Origin: Escherichia coli
Lineage (GTDB): Bacteria; Pseudomonadota; Gammaproteobacteria; Enterobacterales; Enterobacteriaceae
Assembly: GCF_017348835.2 (NCBI RefSeq)
Contig: NZ_CP071375.1
Length of the DNA stretch: 64,000 bases
Direction: 5' to 3' (one strand)
Shown: in pieces, positions 12,518 through 60,322 of the stretch
Layout: each line of letters opens with the position of its first letter
Numbering within the stretch: position 1 is the first letter of the stretch
Notes under the pieces: generated by a model
The model's database searches: none
The model's input: only the letters and a program-made list of their open reading frames with translations
What the model was told of the DNA's origin: nothing
Translations under genes and position numbers: made by a program

Positions 12518-12703
12518 ACAACAAAGCCGGGAATTACCCGGCTTTGTTATGGAATAAGGCGGTGCCTAACTCGACGTTTCGCCCGATGGTTGATATAGCT
12601 ACGCTGATATCAGAAGTTGGACGGCAGGCACCTTGTTGTGCGTCATTCGAATTTTATGTAGCACGTCCCGAAGGGGCTGACATAAGTCGGTGAATGAGCC
12701 ACT
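12518..12703 (-). ncRNA. glmY: GlmY small RNA
   Basis: Reverse strand reads AGTGGCTCATTCACCGACTTATGTCAGCCCCTTCGGGACGTGC... ending in terminator AAAGCCGGGTAATTCCCGGCTTTGTTGT; ends approximate. Confidence 0.85.
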
Positions 12704-21007: not shown

Positions 21008-21304
<297 letters not shown>

Positions 21305-21497
21305 TATTCTACTCTGGAAGTAGAGTATTAATTATTTTACTGGGAAGCCTTAACGCCATTATATTTATTTAATTGATGACATTAGCATAATCATTCACTA
21401 AGTTAATTTATATAGTATCTGCCCAGACACTTATTTATAGTTATTAAAGGCGCGTCCGATTGGTTCACCGGACGCACCTTAAGTACGTTTCCTTGTG

Positions 21498-21578
21498 TTA
21501 TAAGAACAGAAGGATCAGCTGTAAAACAGCAATGATGATTTTGATGACCCGTTTAATCAGGTATCGGCAATCAGTCAT
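21498..21578 (-). CDS. shoB: Type I toxin ShoB (26 aa membrane peptide)
   Basis: Reverse strand translates MTDCRYLIKRVIKIIIAVLQLILLFL*. Confidence 0.85.
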   Translation of the reverse strand: MTDCRYLIKRVIKIIIAVLQLILLFL

Positions 21579-21899
21579 TCGTTTTTCCTTAAACAAGGAA
21601 TGCAGCCGTTCAGATTAGCCCTTACATCTCCCCAAAACTGAACGTGCGAGTTATTGGAATCGAGTGCTGCACTCCACACCAGAGCTTTGACGACACCACT
21701 CGTTTCAATGGGGGAATTCAGTGGCATGGTGTAAAGCACAGCAAAATTGCCAATAACGAAACCGATTTTAATGTACTTATCAAAAAGCGGTCACGTTAAT
21801 CTTTTCATCAATGTCGATTTCTTCGTAAAGGCTCGCGTTTTTTATGTCAGAGATTGCAAGTTGCTTGTACAGGTCAACGAAATTGATCCATAATCATTT

Positions 21900-21977
21900 T
21901 CGTTGGAATCGTGTGCTGCACAAAATTAAAGTTAAAAAGTAAAACCCCCGTTCCTTACCAGTTCGGGGGTTTTACTT
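21900..21977 (+). ncRNA. ohsC: OhsC antisense sRNA (antitoxin of shoB), approximate
   Basis: Placement inferred from CATAAT -10 at 21888-21893, the 19-nt repeat at 21903-21921 and the terminator at 21945-21973; ends not verified. Confidence 0.4.
21941..21975. terminator. Bidirectional rho-independent terminator (acpS / ohsC)
   Basis: AAAACCCCCG-loop-CGGGGGTTTT with A/T runs on both sides. Confidence 0.7.
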
Positions 21978-21999
21978 TATAAAGAGAACGGTATTATTT

Positions 22000-22380
22000 T
22001 TAACTTTCAATAATTACCGTGGCACAAGCATAGTGGCGCTCATCGGCAAGCGTTACATGCATATTTATAACGCCGAGCTTTTCCGCCAGTTTTAATGCCT
22101 CACCCCATAGCCGTAGCCGTGGTTTGCCGAGCTCATCATTGAATACTTCAAACTGATTAAACGCCAGACCATTGCGGATCCCGGTGCCAAACGCTTTTGC
22201 CGCCGCTTCTTTCACAGCAAAACGCTTCGCCAGAAAACGCACCGGCTGGTGGTGCGTTTTCCAGATAGCCCATTCGTTATCGCTTAATACGCGGCGTGCC
22301 AGGCGATCACCGGATCGGGCGATCACTGCTTCTATGCGAGCGATCTCCACAATATCCATACCTAAACCTAATATTGCCAT
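22000..22380 (-). CDS. acpS: Holo-ACP synthase
   Basis: [17 protein letters not shown]..., 126 aa. Confidence 0.95.
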
Positions 22381-23862: not shown

Positions 23863-25475
<1,613 letters not shown>

Positions 25476-25717
25476 TCAGCACACGAAACAGACCTGATAT
25501 ACATGGCTCTGCTAACTGCTTCGCTGCAGTTTCAGTTTAGCGGTATATGGGAACCAACGCTGTTTCGTGTGCCGTGGCAACCTGGAGGTGCCAACCTTAA
25601 ACTTCGGGGGAATATTCTATACACAACGACGGGGGATGTCGTTAGCCACGGGAGATTTATCTCATAAATAATTCACGTTGTCGCCGTAACGGCGACAACG
25701 TGAACGAAGATGAGCTA

Positions 25718-26707: not shown

Positions 26708-28507
<1,800 letters not shown>

Positions 28508-28704
28508 AAAGTATGATTATTGTGCCTTAATGCCCGGTTAACCAGGCTTTTAGAAGTCGCTGTTCTGAGCTTAACGTCTGTATTAATAGAAACGCCGCAT
28601 TCTACACTACAACATTGAGGCGAGGAAATGTTCATACCGTATGGATTGTGGTATCTGGAAACGTCCTCGCATTTGTTATGCAAAATGCAACAAAGCCAGT
28701 GAAA

Positions 28705-29184
28705 TCACTGGCTCGCGTCTTCCGAAGATGTTTCAAATCGCACAAGGCCAGGCGGCAATGCCACGCTTAAGATGATCGGTTGCCATTCTGCCCGGGCAGC
28801 AAACTTACGCGAGTAGCCACGCGCAATCAGGAACCCGCCAATACCGCCGAGGACCGCACCACATAATGCTGCGACGTCAGAAGCAAAGAGTAGCTGAAAT
28901 AGCGAAGCGATGAGGAATAATCCCACCAGCGGCGACATATAAACCAGTAATGCGGAGCTAAGCAGGCTGCCTTCGGCGATCCCTAATTCCACTTTTTGCC
29001 CCGGCACTAACGGCTCATCACAGGGTACGACAATGGTATGCGTGGTTTGCGGGCCAAGTTTATTCAACACGCGGCTACCGCAACCGGCGCGTGAAGCGCA
29101 GCTGCTGCATGAGGCTTTAACATCACAACTGACCAGCGCCTGCCCGTTTTGCCAGGAGACGACGGTAGCCCACTCTTTGATCAT
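28705..29184 (-). CDS. rseC: SoxR-reducing / sigma-E regulatory protein RseC
   Basis: 159 aa, position in rpoE-rseABC operon. Confidence 0.9.
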   Translation of the reverse strand: MIKEWATVVSWQNGQALVSCDVKASCSSCASRAGCGSRVLNKLGPQTTHTIVVPCDEPLVPGQKVELGIAEGSLLSSALLVYMSPLVGLFLIASLFQLLFASDVAALCGAVLGGIGGFLIARGYSRKFAARAEWQPIILSVALPPGLVRFETSSEDASQ

Positions 29185-30137
29185 TGCGCTGCCCCGAACT
29201 TAATATTCTCGGCAATGCGTTTCGCCGTTTGCGGCGGCAGTTCACCGACAATGGTGATTTCGGCGTTATCACGTACGCTTGTACTGACGGTTCTGCGTCC
29301 GGTGCGCAACATCTGATCGGTGCTCGATGGCGTAGCGCGGTTAACGTTTACCGAGAAGCTGAATAATCCGTCGGAATAGAGACGTGATTCGATAGGCATG
29401 TTGTCCATCGTCGGTAGCGGACGTCGACTACTGGAAACTTCGCTAAAACCCTGTGGTAACCAGGTTGGCGTCCAGCTGAATTTAGCTTTTTCACCTACAG
29501 GAACAGAAAGCAACGGCGGCAAATTTGCCTTCGCCAGCGTCTGCATACTGCTGCTGATATCCTGATTGACGTTAAAAGCAATCACGCGAAATTGTTCCAG
29601 CGTTTCACCATCGCGATCAAGGAGATCAACCCTCATCGGTAATTTCGATTCGGTGTCCATCCACACGATGTAGCTGTAGCGTGTACCATCTCGGGCAACC
29701 ACGCGAATGACTTCGCAAAGACGATCAGCAATACGCGTGCGCCCGACGGAGATAAAGTCGTAGTAAGGAGAAAGGCGTTTGAAATCGGTATAGATGAGCG
29801 ATGGCAGAGAATCAACAATGTAATCGCCATTAAGCGTGAACGGTTCAAGTCCCGGTTCAAAATAGCTGATTTCATTGCCGCGCTGTACCACTTCCCGGCG
29901 CGGGCCATCCATTTGCAACAATTGTGCAAGAGGACGGTTATCGAGGCGTGCATGTCGATAACGCAGAGACTCAACACCCTGTTTATTGATGCTGATGAAT
30001 GACAGCTCGTAATTCAGTGACTGACTGGCCAGGTTCATCTGCTGTAATAACGCCCCGGACGCGGGAGTGGCCGAGGCGTTAGCAGAGAATAACAGGCTAC
30101 CTGTCACTAATGACATGGCAAACCAAAGTTGCTTCAT
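29181..30137 (-). CDS. rseB: Sigma-E regulatory protein RseB
   Basis: 318 aa periplasmic protein with signal peptide; start overlaps rseA stop. Confidence 0.93.
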   Translation of the reverse strand: MKQLWFAMSLVTGSLLFSANASATPASGALLQQMNLASQSLNYELSFISINKQGVESLRYRHARLDNRPLAQLLQMDGPRREVVQRGNEISYFEPGLEPFTLNGDYIVDSLPSLIYTDFKRLSPYYDFISVGRTRIADRLCEVIRVVARDGTRYSYIVWMDTESKLPMRVDLLDRDGETLEQFRVIAFNVNQDISSSMQTLAKANLPPLLSVPVGEKAKFSWTPTWLPQGFSEVSSSRRPLPTMDNMPIESRLYSDGLFSFSVNVNRATPSSTDQMLRTGRRTVSTSVRDNAEITIVGELPPQTAKRIAENIKFGAAQ

Positions 30138-47279: not shown

Positions 47280-47399
47280 ATGCCTGGCAGTTCCCTACTC
47301 TCGCATGGGGAGACCCCACACTACCATCGGCGCTACGGCGTTTCACTTCTGAGTTCGGCATGGGGTCAGGTGGGACCACCGCGCTACTGCCGCCAGGCA
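47280..47399 (-). rRNA. rrfG: 5S ribosomal RNA
   Basis: 120 nt matching E. coli 5S (TGCCTGGCGGCAGTAGCGCGGTGGTCCCACC...) on reverse strand. Confidence 0.97.
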
Positions 47400-47493
47400 A
47401 ATTCTGTCGTATTAACCCGCTTACCGCCGGTTAATCTAATCTGTATCAGGCTGAAAATCTTCTCTCAATCCGCCAAAACACCTTCGGCGTTGT

Positions 47494-50398
<2,905 letters not shown>

Positions 50399-50591
50399 TC
50401 ACAACCCGAAGATGTTTCTTGCGATCCATCATCTTGTTGCGAAAATTTGAGAGACTCACGAACAACTTTCGTTGTTCAGTGTTTCAATTTTCAGCTTGAT
50501 CCAGATTTTTAAAGAGCAAATATCTCAAACATCACCCGAAGATGAGTTTTGAGATATTAAGGCAGGTGACTTTCACTCACAAACCAGCAAG

Positions 50592-50667
50592 TGGCGTCCC
50601 CTAGGGGATTCGAACCCCTGTTACCGCCGTGAAAGGGCGGTGTCCTGGGCCTCTAGACGAAGGGGAC
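50592..50667 (-). tRNA. gltW: tRNA-Glu (UUC) in 16S-23S spacer
   Basis: Reverse strand GTCCCCTTCGTCTAGAGGCCCAGGACACCGCCCTTTCACGGCGGTAACAGGGGTTCGAATCCCCTAGGGGACGCCA. Confidence 0.96.
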
Positions 50668-50752
50668 GTATCAGTCTGCTTCGCAAGACGCCTTGCTTTT
50701 CACTTTCTATCAGACAATCTGTGTGAGCACTACAAAGAACGCTTCTTTAAGG

Positions 50753-52293
<1,541 letters not shown>

Positions 52294-52425
52294 TAAAAGT
52301 TTGATGCTCAAAGAATTAAACTTCGTAATGAATTACGTGTTCACTCTTGAGACTTGGTATTCATTTTTCGTCTTGCGACGTTAAGAATCCGTATCTTCGA
52401 GTGCCCACACAGATTGTCTGATAAA

Positions 52426-52737: not shown

Positions 52738-55311
52738 TTACTGGACGGCGACAATCCGGTCTTCATTAACTTCCAGGCGAATCACTTTACCCGGAACCAA
52801 TTCACCAGACAGTATTTGCTGTGCCAGCGGGTTTTCGATCTGCTGCTGAATTGCACGTTTCAGAGGACGTGCACCATAGACCGGATCGTAACCGTTCTCG
52901 CTCAGCAGTTTCAGCGCCTCGTCAGAAATGTGGATTTCATAACCACGTTCTTCCAGACGTTTATACAGACGTTTCAATTGAATCTGCGCAATCGACGCAA
53001 TGTGCTGTTCACCCAGCGGATGGAAGACCACCACTTCATCGATACGGTTAATGAATTCCGGACGGAAGTTATGGCTAACCACACCGAGCACCAGCTCTTT
53101 CATGTGCGCATAATCCAGTTCACCGAAGCGTTCCTGAATCAGATCGGAACCGAGGTTAGAGGTCATAATGACAACCGTATTACGGAAGTCGACCGTTCTC
53201 CCCTGCCCGTCAGTCAGACGCCCATCATCCAGTACCTGCAACAGAATATTGAAGACATCCGGATGCGCTTTTTCCACTTCATCCAGCAGGATGACGGAAT
53301 ACGGACGACGACGCACCGCTTCGGTCAGGTAGCCACCTTCTTCATAACCGACATATCCCGGAGGCGCACCAACCAGACGAGACACCGAGTGTTTCTCCAT
53401 AAACTCGGACATATCGATACGGACCATCGCCTCGTCGCTATCAAACATAAAGTTCGCCAGCGCCTTACAAAGCTCTGTTTTCCCCACACCAGTTGGGCCG
53501 AGGAACAGGAATGAACCAATCGGGCGATTTGGATCCGCCAGCCCCGCACGGCTACGACGAATAGCGTTAGATACCGCATCAACCGCTTCGTTCTGACCAA
53601 TTACGCGATGGTGCAGTTCTTGCTCCATACGCAGCAGTTTTTCGCGCTCGCTTTCCATCATGCGAGAAACCGGAATCCCCGTCCAACGCGCCAGCACTTC
53701 AGCAATTTCAGCGTCGGTCACTTTATTACGCAACAGACGCATAGTTTTGCCTTCGAGCTGCGTTGCGGCTTCCAGTTGCTTTTCCAGTTCCGGGATTTTG
53801 CCGTATTGCAGTTCAGACATCCGCGCCAGGTCACCCACACGGCGAGCCTGTTCAATAGCGATTTTCGCCTGTTCCAGTTCCGCTTTAATGGTCTGCGTAC
53901 CAGAAAGCGATGCCTTCTCTGCTTTCCACTCTTCTTCTAACTCGGAGTACTGACGTTCTTTGTCGCTCAGTTCTTCGTTGAGCATATCCAGACGTTTTTT
54001 ACTGGCTTCATCAGACTCTTTCATTAACGCCTGTTGTTCCAGTTTGAGCTGGATGATACGGCGATCGAGTCGGTCGAGTTCTTCTGGTTTTGAGTCAATC
54101 TGCATACGAATGCTGGATGCTGCTTCATCGATCAGGTCGATGGCTTTATCCGGCAGCTGACGGTCAGCAATGTAGCGATGAGACAACGTCGCCGCTGCAA
54201 CAATTGCCGGGTCAGTAATTTGCACATGGTGGTGCAATTCGTAACGTTCTTTCAGGCCACGCAGAATCGCAATGGTATCTTCAACAGAAGGCTCGGCAAC
54301 AAACACTTTCTGGAAACGACGTTCCAGCGCAGCATCTTTTTCGATGTACTGGCGATATTCGTCAAGCGTCGTGGCACCTACGCAGTGCAATTCACCACGC
54401 GCCAGCGCCGGTTTCAGCATGTTTCCGGCGTCCATTGCGCCATCGGCTTTACCCGCGCCGACCATGGTATGTAATTCGTCGATAAACAGGATGACGTTGC
54501 CTTCCTGTTTGGCAAGGTCGTTAAGCACGCCTTTTAAACGTTCTTCAAACTCACCGCGATATTTCGCCCCAGCCACCAGCGCGCCCATATCCAGCGCCAG
54601 TACCCGGCGGCCTTTCAACCCTTCCGGCACTTCGCCGTTGATAATACGCTGCGCCAGACCTTCAACGATGGCAGTTTTACCGACGCCGGGTTCACCAATC
54701 AGTACCGGGTTATTTTTAGTACGACGTTGCAGCACCTGAATGGTACGGCGAATTTCTTCATCACGACCAATCACCGGATCGAGTTTGCCCTGTTCGGCTC
54801 GTTCGGTAAGGTCGATGGTATATTTTTTCAAAGCCTGACGTTGGTCTTCAGCACCTTGATCGTTCACGCTTTCACCTCCACGCATTTGTTCAATCGCTTG
54901 AGTAATGTTGGCGGTGGTCGCCCCTGCTGCTTTCAGGATGTCGGCCAGTGTGCCGCGAGACTCAAGTGCCGCCAGAACGAACAGTTCTGACGAGATAAAG
55001 TTATCACCACGTTTTTGCGCCAGCTTGTCGCAAAGATTAAGAACGCGCACCAGATCCTGTGATGGCTGGACATCACCACCAGTACCTTCAACCTGCGGTA
55101 AACGATTTAATGCCTGATTGATATCTGTGCGCAACTGGCCAGCATTTATGCCAGCGGATGTTAATAAAGGACTAACCGAACCCCCTTCCTGATTCAGCAG
55201 GGCGCTCATTAAATGAAGTGGTTCGATAAATTGGTTGTCGTGCCCGAGTGCAAGTGATTGGGCATCGGCAAGAGCAAGCTGGAATTTATTAGTAAGACGA
55301 TCCAGACGCAT
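52738..55311 (-). CDS. clpB: Disaggregase chaperone ClpB
   Basis: Two AAA+ modules (GEPGVGKT and GPTGVGKT Walker A); 857 aa; start trimmed to [10 protein letters not shown]. Confidence 0.97.
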
Positions 55312-55348
55312 AACTCCTCCCATAACGGATCAAAGTTGCTACTGGAGA

Positions 55349-55378
55349 TTAAATGAGGTCATCCCTCAATTATTCAAG
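55349..55378 (-). promoter_or_regulatory. Sigma32 heat-shock promoter of clpB
   Basis: Reverse strand CTTGAAT-N13-CCTCATTTA. Confidence 0.7.
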
Positions 55379-55440
55379 GTTATTGACCAGATTAATGTGA
55401 AAAGAAAATCACGCGTACCGGATCGTCTTGATTCTTTAGG

Positions 55441-60160: not shown

Positions 60161-60176
60161 ACTTAAGGAAACAAAC

Positions 60177-60224
60177 ATGAAACACATACCGTTTTTCTTC
60201 GCATTCTTTTTTACCTTCCCCTGA
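60177..60224 (+). CDS. pheL: pheA leader peptide (15 aa, Phe-rich)
   Basis: ATG AAA CAC ATA CCG TTT TTC TTC GCA TTC TTT TTT ACC TTC CCC TGA = [15 protein letters not shown]. Confidence 0.93.
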
Positions 60225-60271
60225 ATGGGAGGCGTTTCGTCGTGTGAAACAGAATGCGAAGACGAACAATA

Positions 60272-60299
60272 AGGCCTCCCAAATCGGGGGGCCTTTTTT
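60272..60299 (+). terminator. pheA attenuator terminator
   Basis: GGCCTCCC-AAATC-GGGGGGCC hairpin followed by TTTTTT between pheL and pheA. Confidence 0.85.
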
Positions 60300-60322
60300 A
60301 TTGATAACAAAAAGGCAACACT

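What the first reader, a model, noticed from the sequence alone, without database searches (positions are those of the whole stretch)
21498..21977. shoB/ohsC type I toxin-antitoxin locus with a 19-nt direct repeat
The reverse strand encodes the 26-aa ShoB toxin exactly (MTDCRYLIKRVIKIIIAVLQLILLFL). About 320 bp away on the + strand, a short transcription unit ending in a strong terminator (21945-21973) fits the OhsC antitoxin sRNA. The 19-mer TTGGAATCG(A/T)GTGCTGCAC occurs twice on the + strand, at 21654-21672 and 21903-21921. The first copy lies in the predicted long shoB 5' UTR, so its mRNA carries the complement; the second lies at the predicted OhsC 5' end. That gives 18 of 19 nt of trans-antisense pairing without physical overlap of the genes. 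The system is known; the repeat is directly visible, but the OhsC ends are my inference.
Basis: partly seen in the sequence, partly recalled or inferred. Interest (0 to 1): 0.3.

Follow-up and report, generated by a model that had tools for sequence, protein, structure and literature searches.

The report
Known shoB–ohsC toxin–antitoxin locus
This is the already-described E. coli shoB/ohsC toxin–antitoxin pair, correctly read by the first stage. The only new point is that this strain carries a minority version in which the antitoxin RNA and its target on the toxin mRNA have both been rewritten in the same way.

Summary
The observation and the interpretation both hold. The (−) strand at 21498–21578 encodes ShoB exactly. 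Rfam places a full-length OhsC at 21902–21978 (+) with 101 bits. The 19-mer occurs at 21654–21672 and 21903–21921 with 18/19 identity, against 0.06 matches expected by chance. The window matches E. coli O157:H7, and K-12 is annotated with the same layout. The system is already known.

Extra result: E. coli has two classes of the 19-mer. This window has TTGGAATCG(A/T)GTGCTGCAC and K-12 has TTGAGGGTGCATGCTGCAC. Seven positions differ, and they differ in both copies together. Among 5,426 complete genomes, 1,689 have both copies of the window type. 3,005 have both of the K-12 type, and 506 have K-12 plus a G·U variant. Only one genome mixes the classes, and it is a clean recombinant. Other Escherichia species carry the K-12 type, so the window allele is derived. 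It also carries a central U·U mismatch in those same 1,689 genomes.

Cognate duplexes are predicted at −34 and −41 kcal/mol, swapped pairs at about −22. A 2024 survey noted variation in the pairing region but did not check pairing genome by genome. Interest is low to moderate.

The parts
21498..21578 (-). shoB coding sequence (26 aa plus stop), a small hydrophobic type I toxin
   Evidence: translation; 0/81 nt differences from K-12 shoB. RefSeq annotates 'type I toxin-antitoxin system toxin ShoB' at this position.
21585..21590 (-). shoB ribosome-binding site AAGGAA (mRNA nt 169-174). It is predicted to sit in a hairpin with UUCCUU (window 21595-21600).
   Evidence: P(unpaired) is 0.08-0.13 in both the +1 and +41 forms. 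RBS AAGGAA is 100% conserved in 2,212 E. coli genomes (PMC11264685).
21447..21480 (-). shoB terminator hairpin (14-bp stem)
   Evidence: −25.3 kcal/mol, z = −6.35; inverted repeat I2.
21653..21672 (-). OhsC target site in the shoB 5' UTR (repeat copy 1; mRNA nt 86-105). The allele-specific block is 21657-21664.
   Evidence: RNase III cleavage inside the putative duplex has been shown in MG1655 in vivo (PMC6212723).
21727..21757 (-). 5' end of the primary shoB transcript (nt 2-32). It is predicted to pair with nt 78-109 and so cover the OhsC target. The published +40/+41 processing would remove it.
   Evidence: opening the target costs 21.1 kcal/mol in the full-length form and 5.9 in the +41 form. 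Covariation is not significant. Processing is taken from the literature.
21765..21794 (-). shoB sigma-70 promoter: −35 GTGACC (21794-21789), 18-nt spacer, −10 TAAAAT (21770-21765). The inferred start site is about 21758.
   Evidence: The same hexamers are reported as 99.9% and 99.6% conserved in E. coli (PMC11264685). The start site is inferred, ±1-2 nt.
21865..21894 (+). ohsC promoter: −35 TTGTAC (21865-21870; the minority variant, 33.1% of E. coli) and −10 CATAAT (21889-21894)
   Evidence: and the table in PMC11264685.
21902..21978 (+). OhsC antitoxin sRNA (77 nt). The seed is nt 1-20 (21902-21921, including repeat copy 2 at 21903-21921). The allele-specific block is 21906-21913. The terminator hairpin is 21936-21978.
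   Evidence: RF02495, 101.3 bits. (K-12 ohsC annotation starts at the equivalent G). (fold).

Best explanation
This is the chromosomal shoB–ohsC type I toxin–antitoxin locus of E. coli, in its O157:H7-type allele.

shoB is transcribed leftward as an mRNA of about 314-320 nt with a 180-nt leader. OhsC is a 77-nt sRNA transcribed rightward from a divergent promoter 144 bp away. The first 20 nt of OhsC pair in trans with nt 86-105 of the shoB leader, 76 nt upstream of the start codon. In this allele the pairing is 10 bp, one U·U mismatch, then 9 bp.

The ribosome-binding site is locked in its own hairpin. In the primary transcript the OhsC target is also covered by the mRNA's own 5' end. Published work reports that 5' processing at about +41 gives the translatable form. 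In my folds the same truncation exposes the target.

OhsC binding to this upstream site then prevents ShoB synthesis. It most likely does so by occupying a ribosome standby or loading region, and by creating an RNase III substrate. If ShoB is made, it depolarises the inner membrane.

The two 19-mers are the specificity determinants. They have been rewritten together in this allele class.

Shown here: the sequence features, homology, pairing energetics, and covariation across genomes.
Taken from the literature: toxicity, repression, processing, and RNase III cleavage, all established in K-12.
Inferred: the transcript ends in this strain, and the standby mechanism.
For: Identity:
- ShoB ORF is exact.
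- RF02495 matches at full length, 101.3 bits.
- The window is 100% identical to O157:H7 genomes that annotate shoB between yfhL and acpS.
- K-12 annotates the shoB CDS and the ohsC ncRNA in the same layout.

Pairing:
- The repeat is far above chance.
- Duplex energy for OhsC nt 1-22 against the leader is −34.2 kcal/mol in the window and −41.4 in K-12. Swapped alleles give −21.5 and −23.0. Shuffled seeds give −15.6 ± 2.5.

Covariation:
- 5 of 20 pairs change on both sides.
- 95.8% of cells are paired, against 21-53% in slid registers.

Population counts:
- 1,689 genomes have both copies of the window type.
- 3,005 have both of the K-12 type.
- 506 have the K-12 type plus a G·U variant.
- 0 and 1 genomes are discordant.

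Structure: opening the target costs 21.1 kcal/mol in the +1 form and 5.9 in the +41 form, and the SD is sequestered in both.

Literature:
- 19-nt complementarity between the OhsC 5' end and the shoB leader (PMC3919570).
- A ~320-nt inactive form and a ~280-nt active form (PMC5397157, PMC5066626, PMC7708055).
- RNase III cleavage in the duplex region in vivo (PMC6212723).
Against: - No transcript data exist here for this strain. The shoB start site (about 21758) is inferred from the −10 hexamer.
- The 5'-end/target helix shows no significant covariation (1 compensatory pair; 121 of 500 shuffles do as well).
- How OhsC blocks translation has not been established for shoB, even in K-12. The papers only propose the standby model.
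- In my folds, neither processing nor mimicked OhsC binding changes SD accessibility. A dinQ-like switch is therefore not predicted, and the standby site itself was not identified.
- The central U·U mismatch could weaken repression in this allele.
- The near-perfect concordance of the two copies could simply reflect tight linkage (249 bp) rather than selection.
Confidence: 0.88

Rival explanations
1. The two allele classes are only linked neutral variation. A diverged ~260-bp segment (21657-21913) was brought in once by recombination from an unsampled relative. The two 19-mers stay concordant because they are 249 bp apart, not because mixed alleles are selected against.
For: - Divergence is confined to one contiguous segment. 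It is 35-37% in the 19-mers and 19.6% in the promoter spacer, against 3-3.7% in acpS and pdxJ.
- The window haplotype is further from K-12 than other Escherichia species are.
- The one discordant genome is a simple single-crossover recombinant with an intact shoB ORF, so mixing is not obviously lethal.
Against: - Inside the segment, the transcribed parts other than the blocks are nearly unchanged (1-4 differences in 86 nt of leader, 0 in 57 nt of OhsC body). Change is therefore targeted to the two pairing blocks and the untranscribed spacer.
- The 7 substitutions are the same in both copies, which in any lineage requires compensatory evolution or gene conversion.
- Only 1 recombinant was found among about 5,400 genomes.
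Confidence: 0.45
2. OhsC acts mainly by triggering RNase III cleavage and decay of the shoB mRNA, not by blocking a standby ribosome site.
For: - RNase III cleavage sites were mapped in the putative shoB/OhsC duplex in MG1655 (PMC6212723).
- In the sister system, OrzO cannot repress zorO without RNase III (PMC3919570).
- A 19-20 bp duplex is close to the length RNase III needs.
Against: - For tisB/IstR-1, cleavage accompanies but is not required for translational block, according to the review text.
- The central U·U in this allele would make a poorer RNase III substrate, yet it is present in all 1,689 window-type genomes.
Confidence: 0.35
3. A dinQ-like structural switch. After 5' processing, the freed target segment pairs with the anti-SD and opens the RBS. 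OhsC binding recaptures it, so the closed SD hairpin reforms.
For: Kristiansen et al. note four sequence elements in the shoB leader that allow a dinQ-like fold (PMC5066626).
Against: In my folds of both alleles the SD hairpin (UUCCUU/AAGGAA) stays closed in the +1 form, the +41 form and the OhsC-bound mimic (P(unpaired) 0.08-0.22). No target:anti-SD pairing appears.
Confidence: 0.15
4. The (+) strand unit at 21900-21978 is not an independent sRNA. It is only the bidirectional terminator of the convergent acpS gene, and the repeat is incidental.
For: The hairpin folds equally well on the (−) strand, where it is followed by U5 just after the acpS stop. Rfam gives a sub-threshold palindromic hit on (−).
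Against: - The covariance-model match is full-length and includes the non-terminator 5' half.
- A promoter with a 100%-conserved −10 sits 7 nt upstream of +1.
- K-12 annotates ohsC as an ncRNA.
- The seed co-varies with its target.
Confidence: 0.02

Closest known systems
shoB–ohsC of E. coli K-12 MG1655 (b4687 / b4608; Fozo et al. 2008, PMID 18710431)
   Same: The ShoB peptide is identical and the CDS has 0/81 nt differences. The OhsC body is identical (0/57). The shoB promoter hexamers, the ohsC −10 and the RBS match those reported for MG1655 in PMC11264685; the ohsC −35 is the minority TTGTAC variant. The yfhL–acpS location, divergent non-overlapping layout and spacing (324 vs 323 bp) are also the same.
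   Different: - 7 of 8 nt in the core of both pairing elements are replaced (GAATCG[A/T]G here, AGGGTGCA in K-12).
- Pairing is 10(1)9 with a U·U mismatch instead of 19-20 continuous bp, giving a predicted duplex of −34 instead of −41 kcal/mol.
- The K-12 seed can form a 5-bp hairpin (GUGCA-UGC-UGCAC) that is weaker here.
- The inter-promoter spacer is 19.6% diverged, including the region where K-12 has a CpxR box over the ohsC −35.
zorO–orzO / zorP–orzP (E. coli O157:H7)
   Same: A divergent sRNA whose 5' 18 nt pair far upstream in a ~174-nt leader. The active mRNA is 5'-processed. A short variable block (V1) in the seed sets specificity between the paralogous pairs (PMC3919570, PMC5397157).
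   Different: The toxin and sRNA sequences are unrelated to ShoB and OhsC. In Zor/Orz the specificity variants coexist as tandem paralogues in one genome. Here they are alternative alleles of a single-copy locus in different strains.
tisB–istR-1
   Same: A divergent sRNA pairs about 100 nt upstream of a sequestered RBS. The primary transcript is inactive and the processed form (+42) is active. The duplex is cleaved by RNase III.
   Different: The standby mechanism is proven for tisB and only proposed for shoB. tisB is LexA-controlled, whereas shoB/ohsC has reported CpxR boxes (PMC9600279).
dinQ–agrB
   Same: A long structured leader in which the 5' end pairs with the antitoxin target. Processing at +44 activates translation.
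   Different: The dinQ switch works by alternative pairing with the anti-SD. That is not predicted for shoB in my folds.

Membership tests
shoB–ohsC type I toxin–antitoxin locus | 26-aa hydrophobic ShoB peptide ORF | tested here: met
   The translation is exact and the CDS is identical to K-12. No Pfam or NCBIfam HMM exists for it, so identity rests on direct sequence comparison and RefSeq annotation.
shoB–ohsC type I toxin–antitoxin locus | OhsC sRNA homologue (Rfam RF02495) | tested here: met
   101.3 bits against a gathering score of 50, model positions 1-77 of 77, at 21902-21978 (+).
shoB–ohsC type I toxin–antitoxin locus | Divergent, non-overlapping genes in the yfhL–acpS intergenic region | tested here: met
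   yfhL ends at 21304 and acpS is at 22000-22380 (−). The same neighbours are found in 5,343 or more E. coli genomes and in K-12.
shoB–ohsC type I toxin–antitoxin locus | About 19 nt of complementarity between the OhsC 5' end and the shoB 5' UTR | tested here: met
   18/19 plus a terminal G·U, at −34.2 kcal/mol against −15.6 ± 2.5 for shuffled seeds. Compensatory changes occur across alleles.
shoB–ohsC type I toxin–antitoxin locus | Both RNAs are transcribed with the mapped ends (OhsC ~77-79 nt; shoB ~320 and ~280 nt) | not testable with these tools
   Promoter hexamers and terminators are present and the predicted shoB mRNA is 314 nt. The ends were mapped only in K-12 (literature).
shoB–ohsC type I toxin–antitoxin locus | ShoB overproduction is toxic and OhsC represses it | not testable with these tools
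   This is experimental work (Fozo 2008, cited). No experiment is known to me for the window-type allele pair. EDL933 ohsC was cloned only as a negative control for zorO.
Standby-site-regulated type I toxins (tisB/istR-1 type) | The antitoxin competes with ribosome standby binding upstream of a sequestered RBS | tested here: inconclusive
   The sequestered RBS and the distal target are predicted. No standby site was identified, and the mechanism is only proposed for shoB.

The most novel reading that the evidence does not exclude
The window carries a naturally re-specified antitoxin/target pair. The core of the OhsC seed and of its shoB target were replaced in concert (7 nt each), together with a promoter spacer that is about 20% diverged. 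This gives an allele predicted to be orthogonal to the ancestral K-12 type, and one that retains a central U·U mismatch. If selection, rather than linkage alone, keeps the two halves together, the locus would be a within-species example of co-evolving RNA–RNA specificity with allelic incompatibility in a single-copy chromosomal type I system. The one recombinant strain (Z1323CEC0015) would then be a natural 'antitoxin-mismatched' mutant.
Probability: 0.3. Interest if true: 0.5.

Novelty: already known. Interest (0 to 1): 0.27.

Why it matters
The locus adds nothing new, because shoB/ohsC is annotated and published.

The allele analysis adds a small piece of value. [quoted passage not shown] The counts here show that pairing is preserved genome by genome in essentially all of about 5,400 complete genomes. 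They also show that the variation is a concerted switch between two specificity classes, and that the minority class (about 31% of genomes, including O157:H7) is derived.

This amounts to a ready-made natural compensatory-mutation experiment supporting the predicted OhsC–shoB interaction. It also suggests a simple 2×2 cross-repression test.

Tried and rejected
1. Inverted-duplication origin. I considered that OhsC arose by inverted duplication of the shoB promoter and 5' leader. Both RNAs start in TTTCGTT and both pair with the same target (repeats D2, I4, I5). Local alignment of the two promoter/5' regions is not above chance (score 16; 215/1000 shuffles in the window allele and 195/1000 in K-12). 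Rejected.

2. Covariation for the intramolecular 5'-end/target helix. Only one compensatory pair was found, which is not significant. The helix is kept as an energy-based prediction only.

3. Protein-based searches. ShoB is too short for the search for related loci and the search for homologous proteins, and no Pfam or NCBIfam model hits it. I used a degenerate DNA pattern instead. That pattern requires the N-terminal 10 residues to be conserved, so absence outside Escherichia is weak evidence.

4. Simple terminator scan. It found nothing in 21300-22100 because both hairpins fall outside its loop or tail rules. Folding shows them clearly.

5. Literature gaps. Fozo 2008 and the Fozo 2012 review are not held, so I cannot exclude that the allele covariation was mentioned there. 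The held supplement of the 2024 paper contains neither block sequence. A search for 'ohsC' plus 'compensatory' returned only neuroscience papers.

6. Count consistency. The totals from the four chimeric megablast searches disagree by 73 genomes (1.3%). Likely causes are IS-split loci (20 genomes with two places) and partial coverage. The counts are approximate lower bounds.

Full report
**What is in the sequence**

The (−) strand at 21498–21578 translates to MTDCRYLIKRVIKIIIAVLQLILLFL*. The 19-mer TTGGAATCG(A/T)GTGCTGCAC occurs on the (+) strand at 21654–21672 and 21903–21921. There is no other match in the 64 kb window, even with three mismatches allowed. The chance expectation is 0.06 matches, and 0 of 100 shuffles gave two.

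Rfam's ohsC_RNA model (RF02495) matches 21902–21978 (+) over its whole length at 101.3 bits, against a gathering score of 50. Repeat copy 2 is therefore nt 2–20 of the sRNA. The sRNA ends in a 15-bp hairpin at 21936–21978.

**Identity and context**

The 701-bp region is 100% identical to E. coli O157:H7 genomes. 5,425 of 5,426 complete E. coli genomes hold the locus, always on the chromosome, with shoB annotated between yfhL and acpS. K-12 MG1655 annotates the shoB CDS on (−) and the ohsC ncRNA on (+), 323 bp apart, starting at the G that corresponds to window 21902.

The consensus scan finds the promoters described in the literature.
- shoB: −35 GTGACC, 18-nt spacer, −10 TAAAAT (21794→21765, − strand).
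- ohsC: TTGTAC/CATAAT (21865–21894, + strand).
- The ohsC −35 here is the 33.1% minority variant reported by PMC11264685.

If shoB transcription starts about 7 nt after the −10 (around 21758) and ends at the 14-bp terminator hairpin at 21447–21480, the mRNA is about 314 nt. The leader is then 180 nt. This fits the published ~320-nt primary transcript.

**How it works**

OhsC nt 1–20 pair with shoB mRNA nt 86–105, which lie 76 nt upstream of the AUG. In this strain the pairing is 10 bp, a U·U mismatch, then 9 bp, predicted at −34.2 kcal/mol. Shuffled seeds give −15.6 ± 2.5.

Folding gives three results.
- The RBS (AAGGAA, 21585–21590) sits in a hairpin with UUCCUU.
- In the full-length transcript, nt 2–32 pair with nt 78–109 and cover the OhsC target.
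- Opening the target costs 21.1 kcal/mol in the +1 form and only 5.9 in a +41 form.

This agrees with the published findings. The ~320-nt form is translationally inactive, and a form processed about 40–41 nt downstream is active. OhsC is proposed to block a standby site, as IstR-1 does for tisB (PMC5066626, PMC5397157, PMC7708055).

RNase III cleavage within the putative duplex has been seen in vivo in MG1655 (PMC6212723). The exact mode of repression remains unproven for shoB. The candidates are standby block, cleavage, or a dinQ-like switch. My folds do not predict any change in SD accessibility on processing or on OhsC binding, which argues against the dinQ-type switch. The 5'-end/target helix has no significant covariation support.

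**Two allele classes**

An alignment of ten E. coli alleles shows two classes of the 19-mer. The window has TTGGAATCG(A/T)GTGCTGCAC. K-12 has TTGAGGGTGCATGCTGCAC, which is 19/19 between its two copies. Seven positions differ, and they differ in both copies together.

I used chimeric megablast queries in which each half can seed only if its own block matches exactly. Across 5,426 complete genomes the counts were as follows.

| Copy 1 / copy 2 | Genomes |
|---|---|
| Window / window | 1,689 |
| K-12 / K-12 | 3,005 |
| K-12 / AGGGTGCG (gives a G·U pair) | 506 |
| Window / K-12 | 0 |
| K-12 / window | 1 |

- The discordant genome (NZ_CP148423.1) is a clean recombinant. Its crossover lies between 21850 and 21870, and its shoB ORF is intact.
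- Genomes that matched only one half, where I checked them, were IS1 insertions splitting the locus.
- On distinct alleles, 5 of 20 intermolecular pairs show changes on both sides. 95.8% of cells pair, against 21–53% in slid registers.
- In the variable block, the unpaired cells come from the recombinant. The window's U·U is the only other one.
- Swapped allele pairs are predicted at only −21.5 and −23.0 kcal/mol, with 5(4)11-type interrupted pairing.
- In the closest tested system, Zor–Orz, 5(2)11 pairing fails. Repression needs at least 15 continuous paired nt, or at least 17 paired nt around one unpaired nt, and a 9(1)8 mutant is attenuated (PMC3919570).

By analogy, the window's 10(1)9 pairing should be functional, perhaps weakened, and the two allele classes should not cross-repress. 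That last step is inference.

**Polarity and pattern of divergence**

A degenerate ShoB N-terminus pattern found the locus in six species-representative genomes, all Escherichia. They are E. albertii, E. whittamii, two unnamed Escherichia species, and two divergent genomes labelled 'E. coli'.

All carry the K-12-type block or 1–2-nt variants of it. The window block is therefore derived and restricted to about 31% of E. coli. The table gives window-vs-K-12 divergence by segment.

| Segment | Divergence |
|---|---|
| shoB CDS | 0% |
| OhsC body | 0% |
| Rest of the leader | 1–5% |
| The two 19-mers | 35–37% |
| Untranscribed spacer between the two start sites | 19.6% |
| acpS / pdxJ | 3–3.7% |

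In the spacer and seeds the window is further from K-12 than the other Escherichia species are.

Two readings remain open. The segment may be an import of a co-evolved module from an unsampled lineage, held together by linkage. Alternatively, there may have been in-situ concerted change, with selection against mixed alleles.

**Comparison with what is known, and verdict**

The system is shoB–ohsC, first described by Fozo et al. 2008. It is annotated in RefSeq and has an Rfam family, so the finding is already known.

The 2024 survey (PMC11264685) noted large variation in the pairing regions and said that adequate pairing could not yet be confirmed for shoB–ohsC. I found no description of the concerted allele switch in the papers held. 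Fozo 2008 and the 2012 review are not held, so I cannot exclude that it is described there.

The allele result is a modest increment. It gives natural compensatory evidence for the predicted interaction and suggests a straightforward cross-repression experiment. Interest is low to moderate.

Noticed in passing
NZ_CP148423.1 (locus L011), equivalent to window 21657-21913: This is the single E. coli genome among about 5,400 that combines a K-12-type shoB target with a window-type OhsC seed. It is a clean recombinant with its crossover between window 21850 and 21870, and its shoB ORF is intact. The predicted duplex is only about −22 kcal/mol, so it may be a natural strain with a mismatched antitoxin.
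   Followed up: partly
window 21759-21901: The untranscribed spacer between the shoB and ohsC start sites differs from K-12 by 19.6% and from every other Escherichia lineage by 15-21%. Flanking genes differ by 3-4%. The K-12 sequence GTAAAAGATCAGTAC over the ohsC −35 reads GTACAGGTCAACGAA here. A CpxR box (CB2) was reported in that region (PMC11264685, PMC9600279), so CpxR control of ohsC may differ in this allele.
   Followed up: partly
window 21875-21905: A 13-nt inverted repeat, CAACGAAATTGAT / ATCATTTTCGTTG (92% complementary, 5 nt between the arms), brackets the ohsC −10 and reaches OhsC +1 to +4. By hand count it is about 8/13 complementary in K-12, so it seems particular to the window haplotype. 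It could be an operator or just chance.
   Followed up: no
window 21936-21982, both strands: The OhsC terminator is nearly palindromic. On the (−) strand it folds equally well (−25.4 kcal/mol) and is followed by U5, directly after the acpS stop codon (22000). It probably serves as a bidirectional terminator for ohsC and the convergent pdxJ-acpS transcript. This explains the sub-threshold (−)-strand ohsC hit in Rfam and the 'short ohsC matches' mentioned in PMC11264685.
   Followed up: partly
window 21300-21430 (yfhL–shoB spacer): In three E. coli genomes (L007-L009) this spacer is replaced by a very different sequence, while shoB and its terminator stay conserved. This is a second hypervariable patch next to the locus.
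   Followed up: no
L010 (NZ_CP144930.1), L018 (NZ_CP135595.1), L019 (NZ_AP027800.1), H6 (NZ_CP082835.1): Insertion sequences recur in this locus in other strains. IS1 is annotated at the locus in three genomes, and no shoB is annotated in the two fetched (L018, L019). An IS5-family ISKpn26 element sits where shoB would be in L010, where no shoB is annotated and an ohsC seed remains (an apparent antitoxin-only genome).
   Followed up: partly
window 21498-21596 (−): The mechanical ORF list extends ShoB upstream to a TTG, giving 32 aa (MFKEKR + ShoB). That TTG lies inside the predicted anti-SD/SD hairpin and has no RBS of its own, so the annotated ATG at 21578 is the likelier start.
   Followed up: no
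window 12556-12703, 25391-25605, 28389-29220, 47282-52294, 55292-55430, 60176-60301: Other Rfam hits above gathering score fix the chromosomal context: GlmY, the rnc leader (rncO), AsrC (antisense RNA of rseC mRNA), a complete rRNA operon (5S, 23S, tRNA, 16S on the − strand), RyfD, and the Phe leader. All are ordinary for this part of the E. coli chromosome.
   Followed up: no
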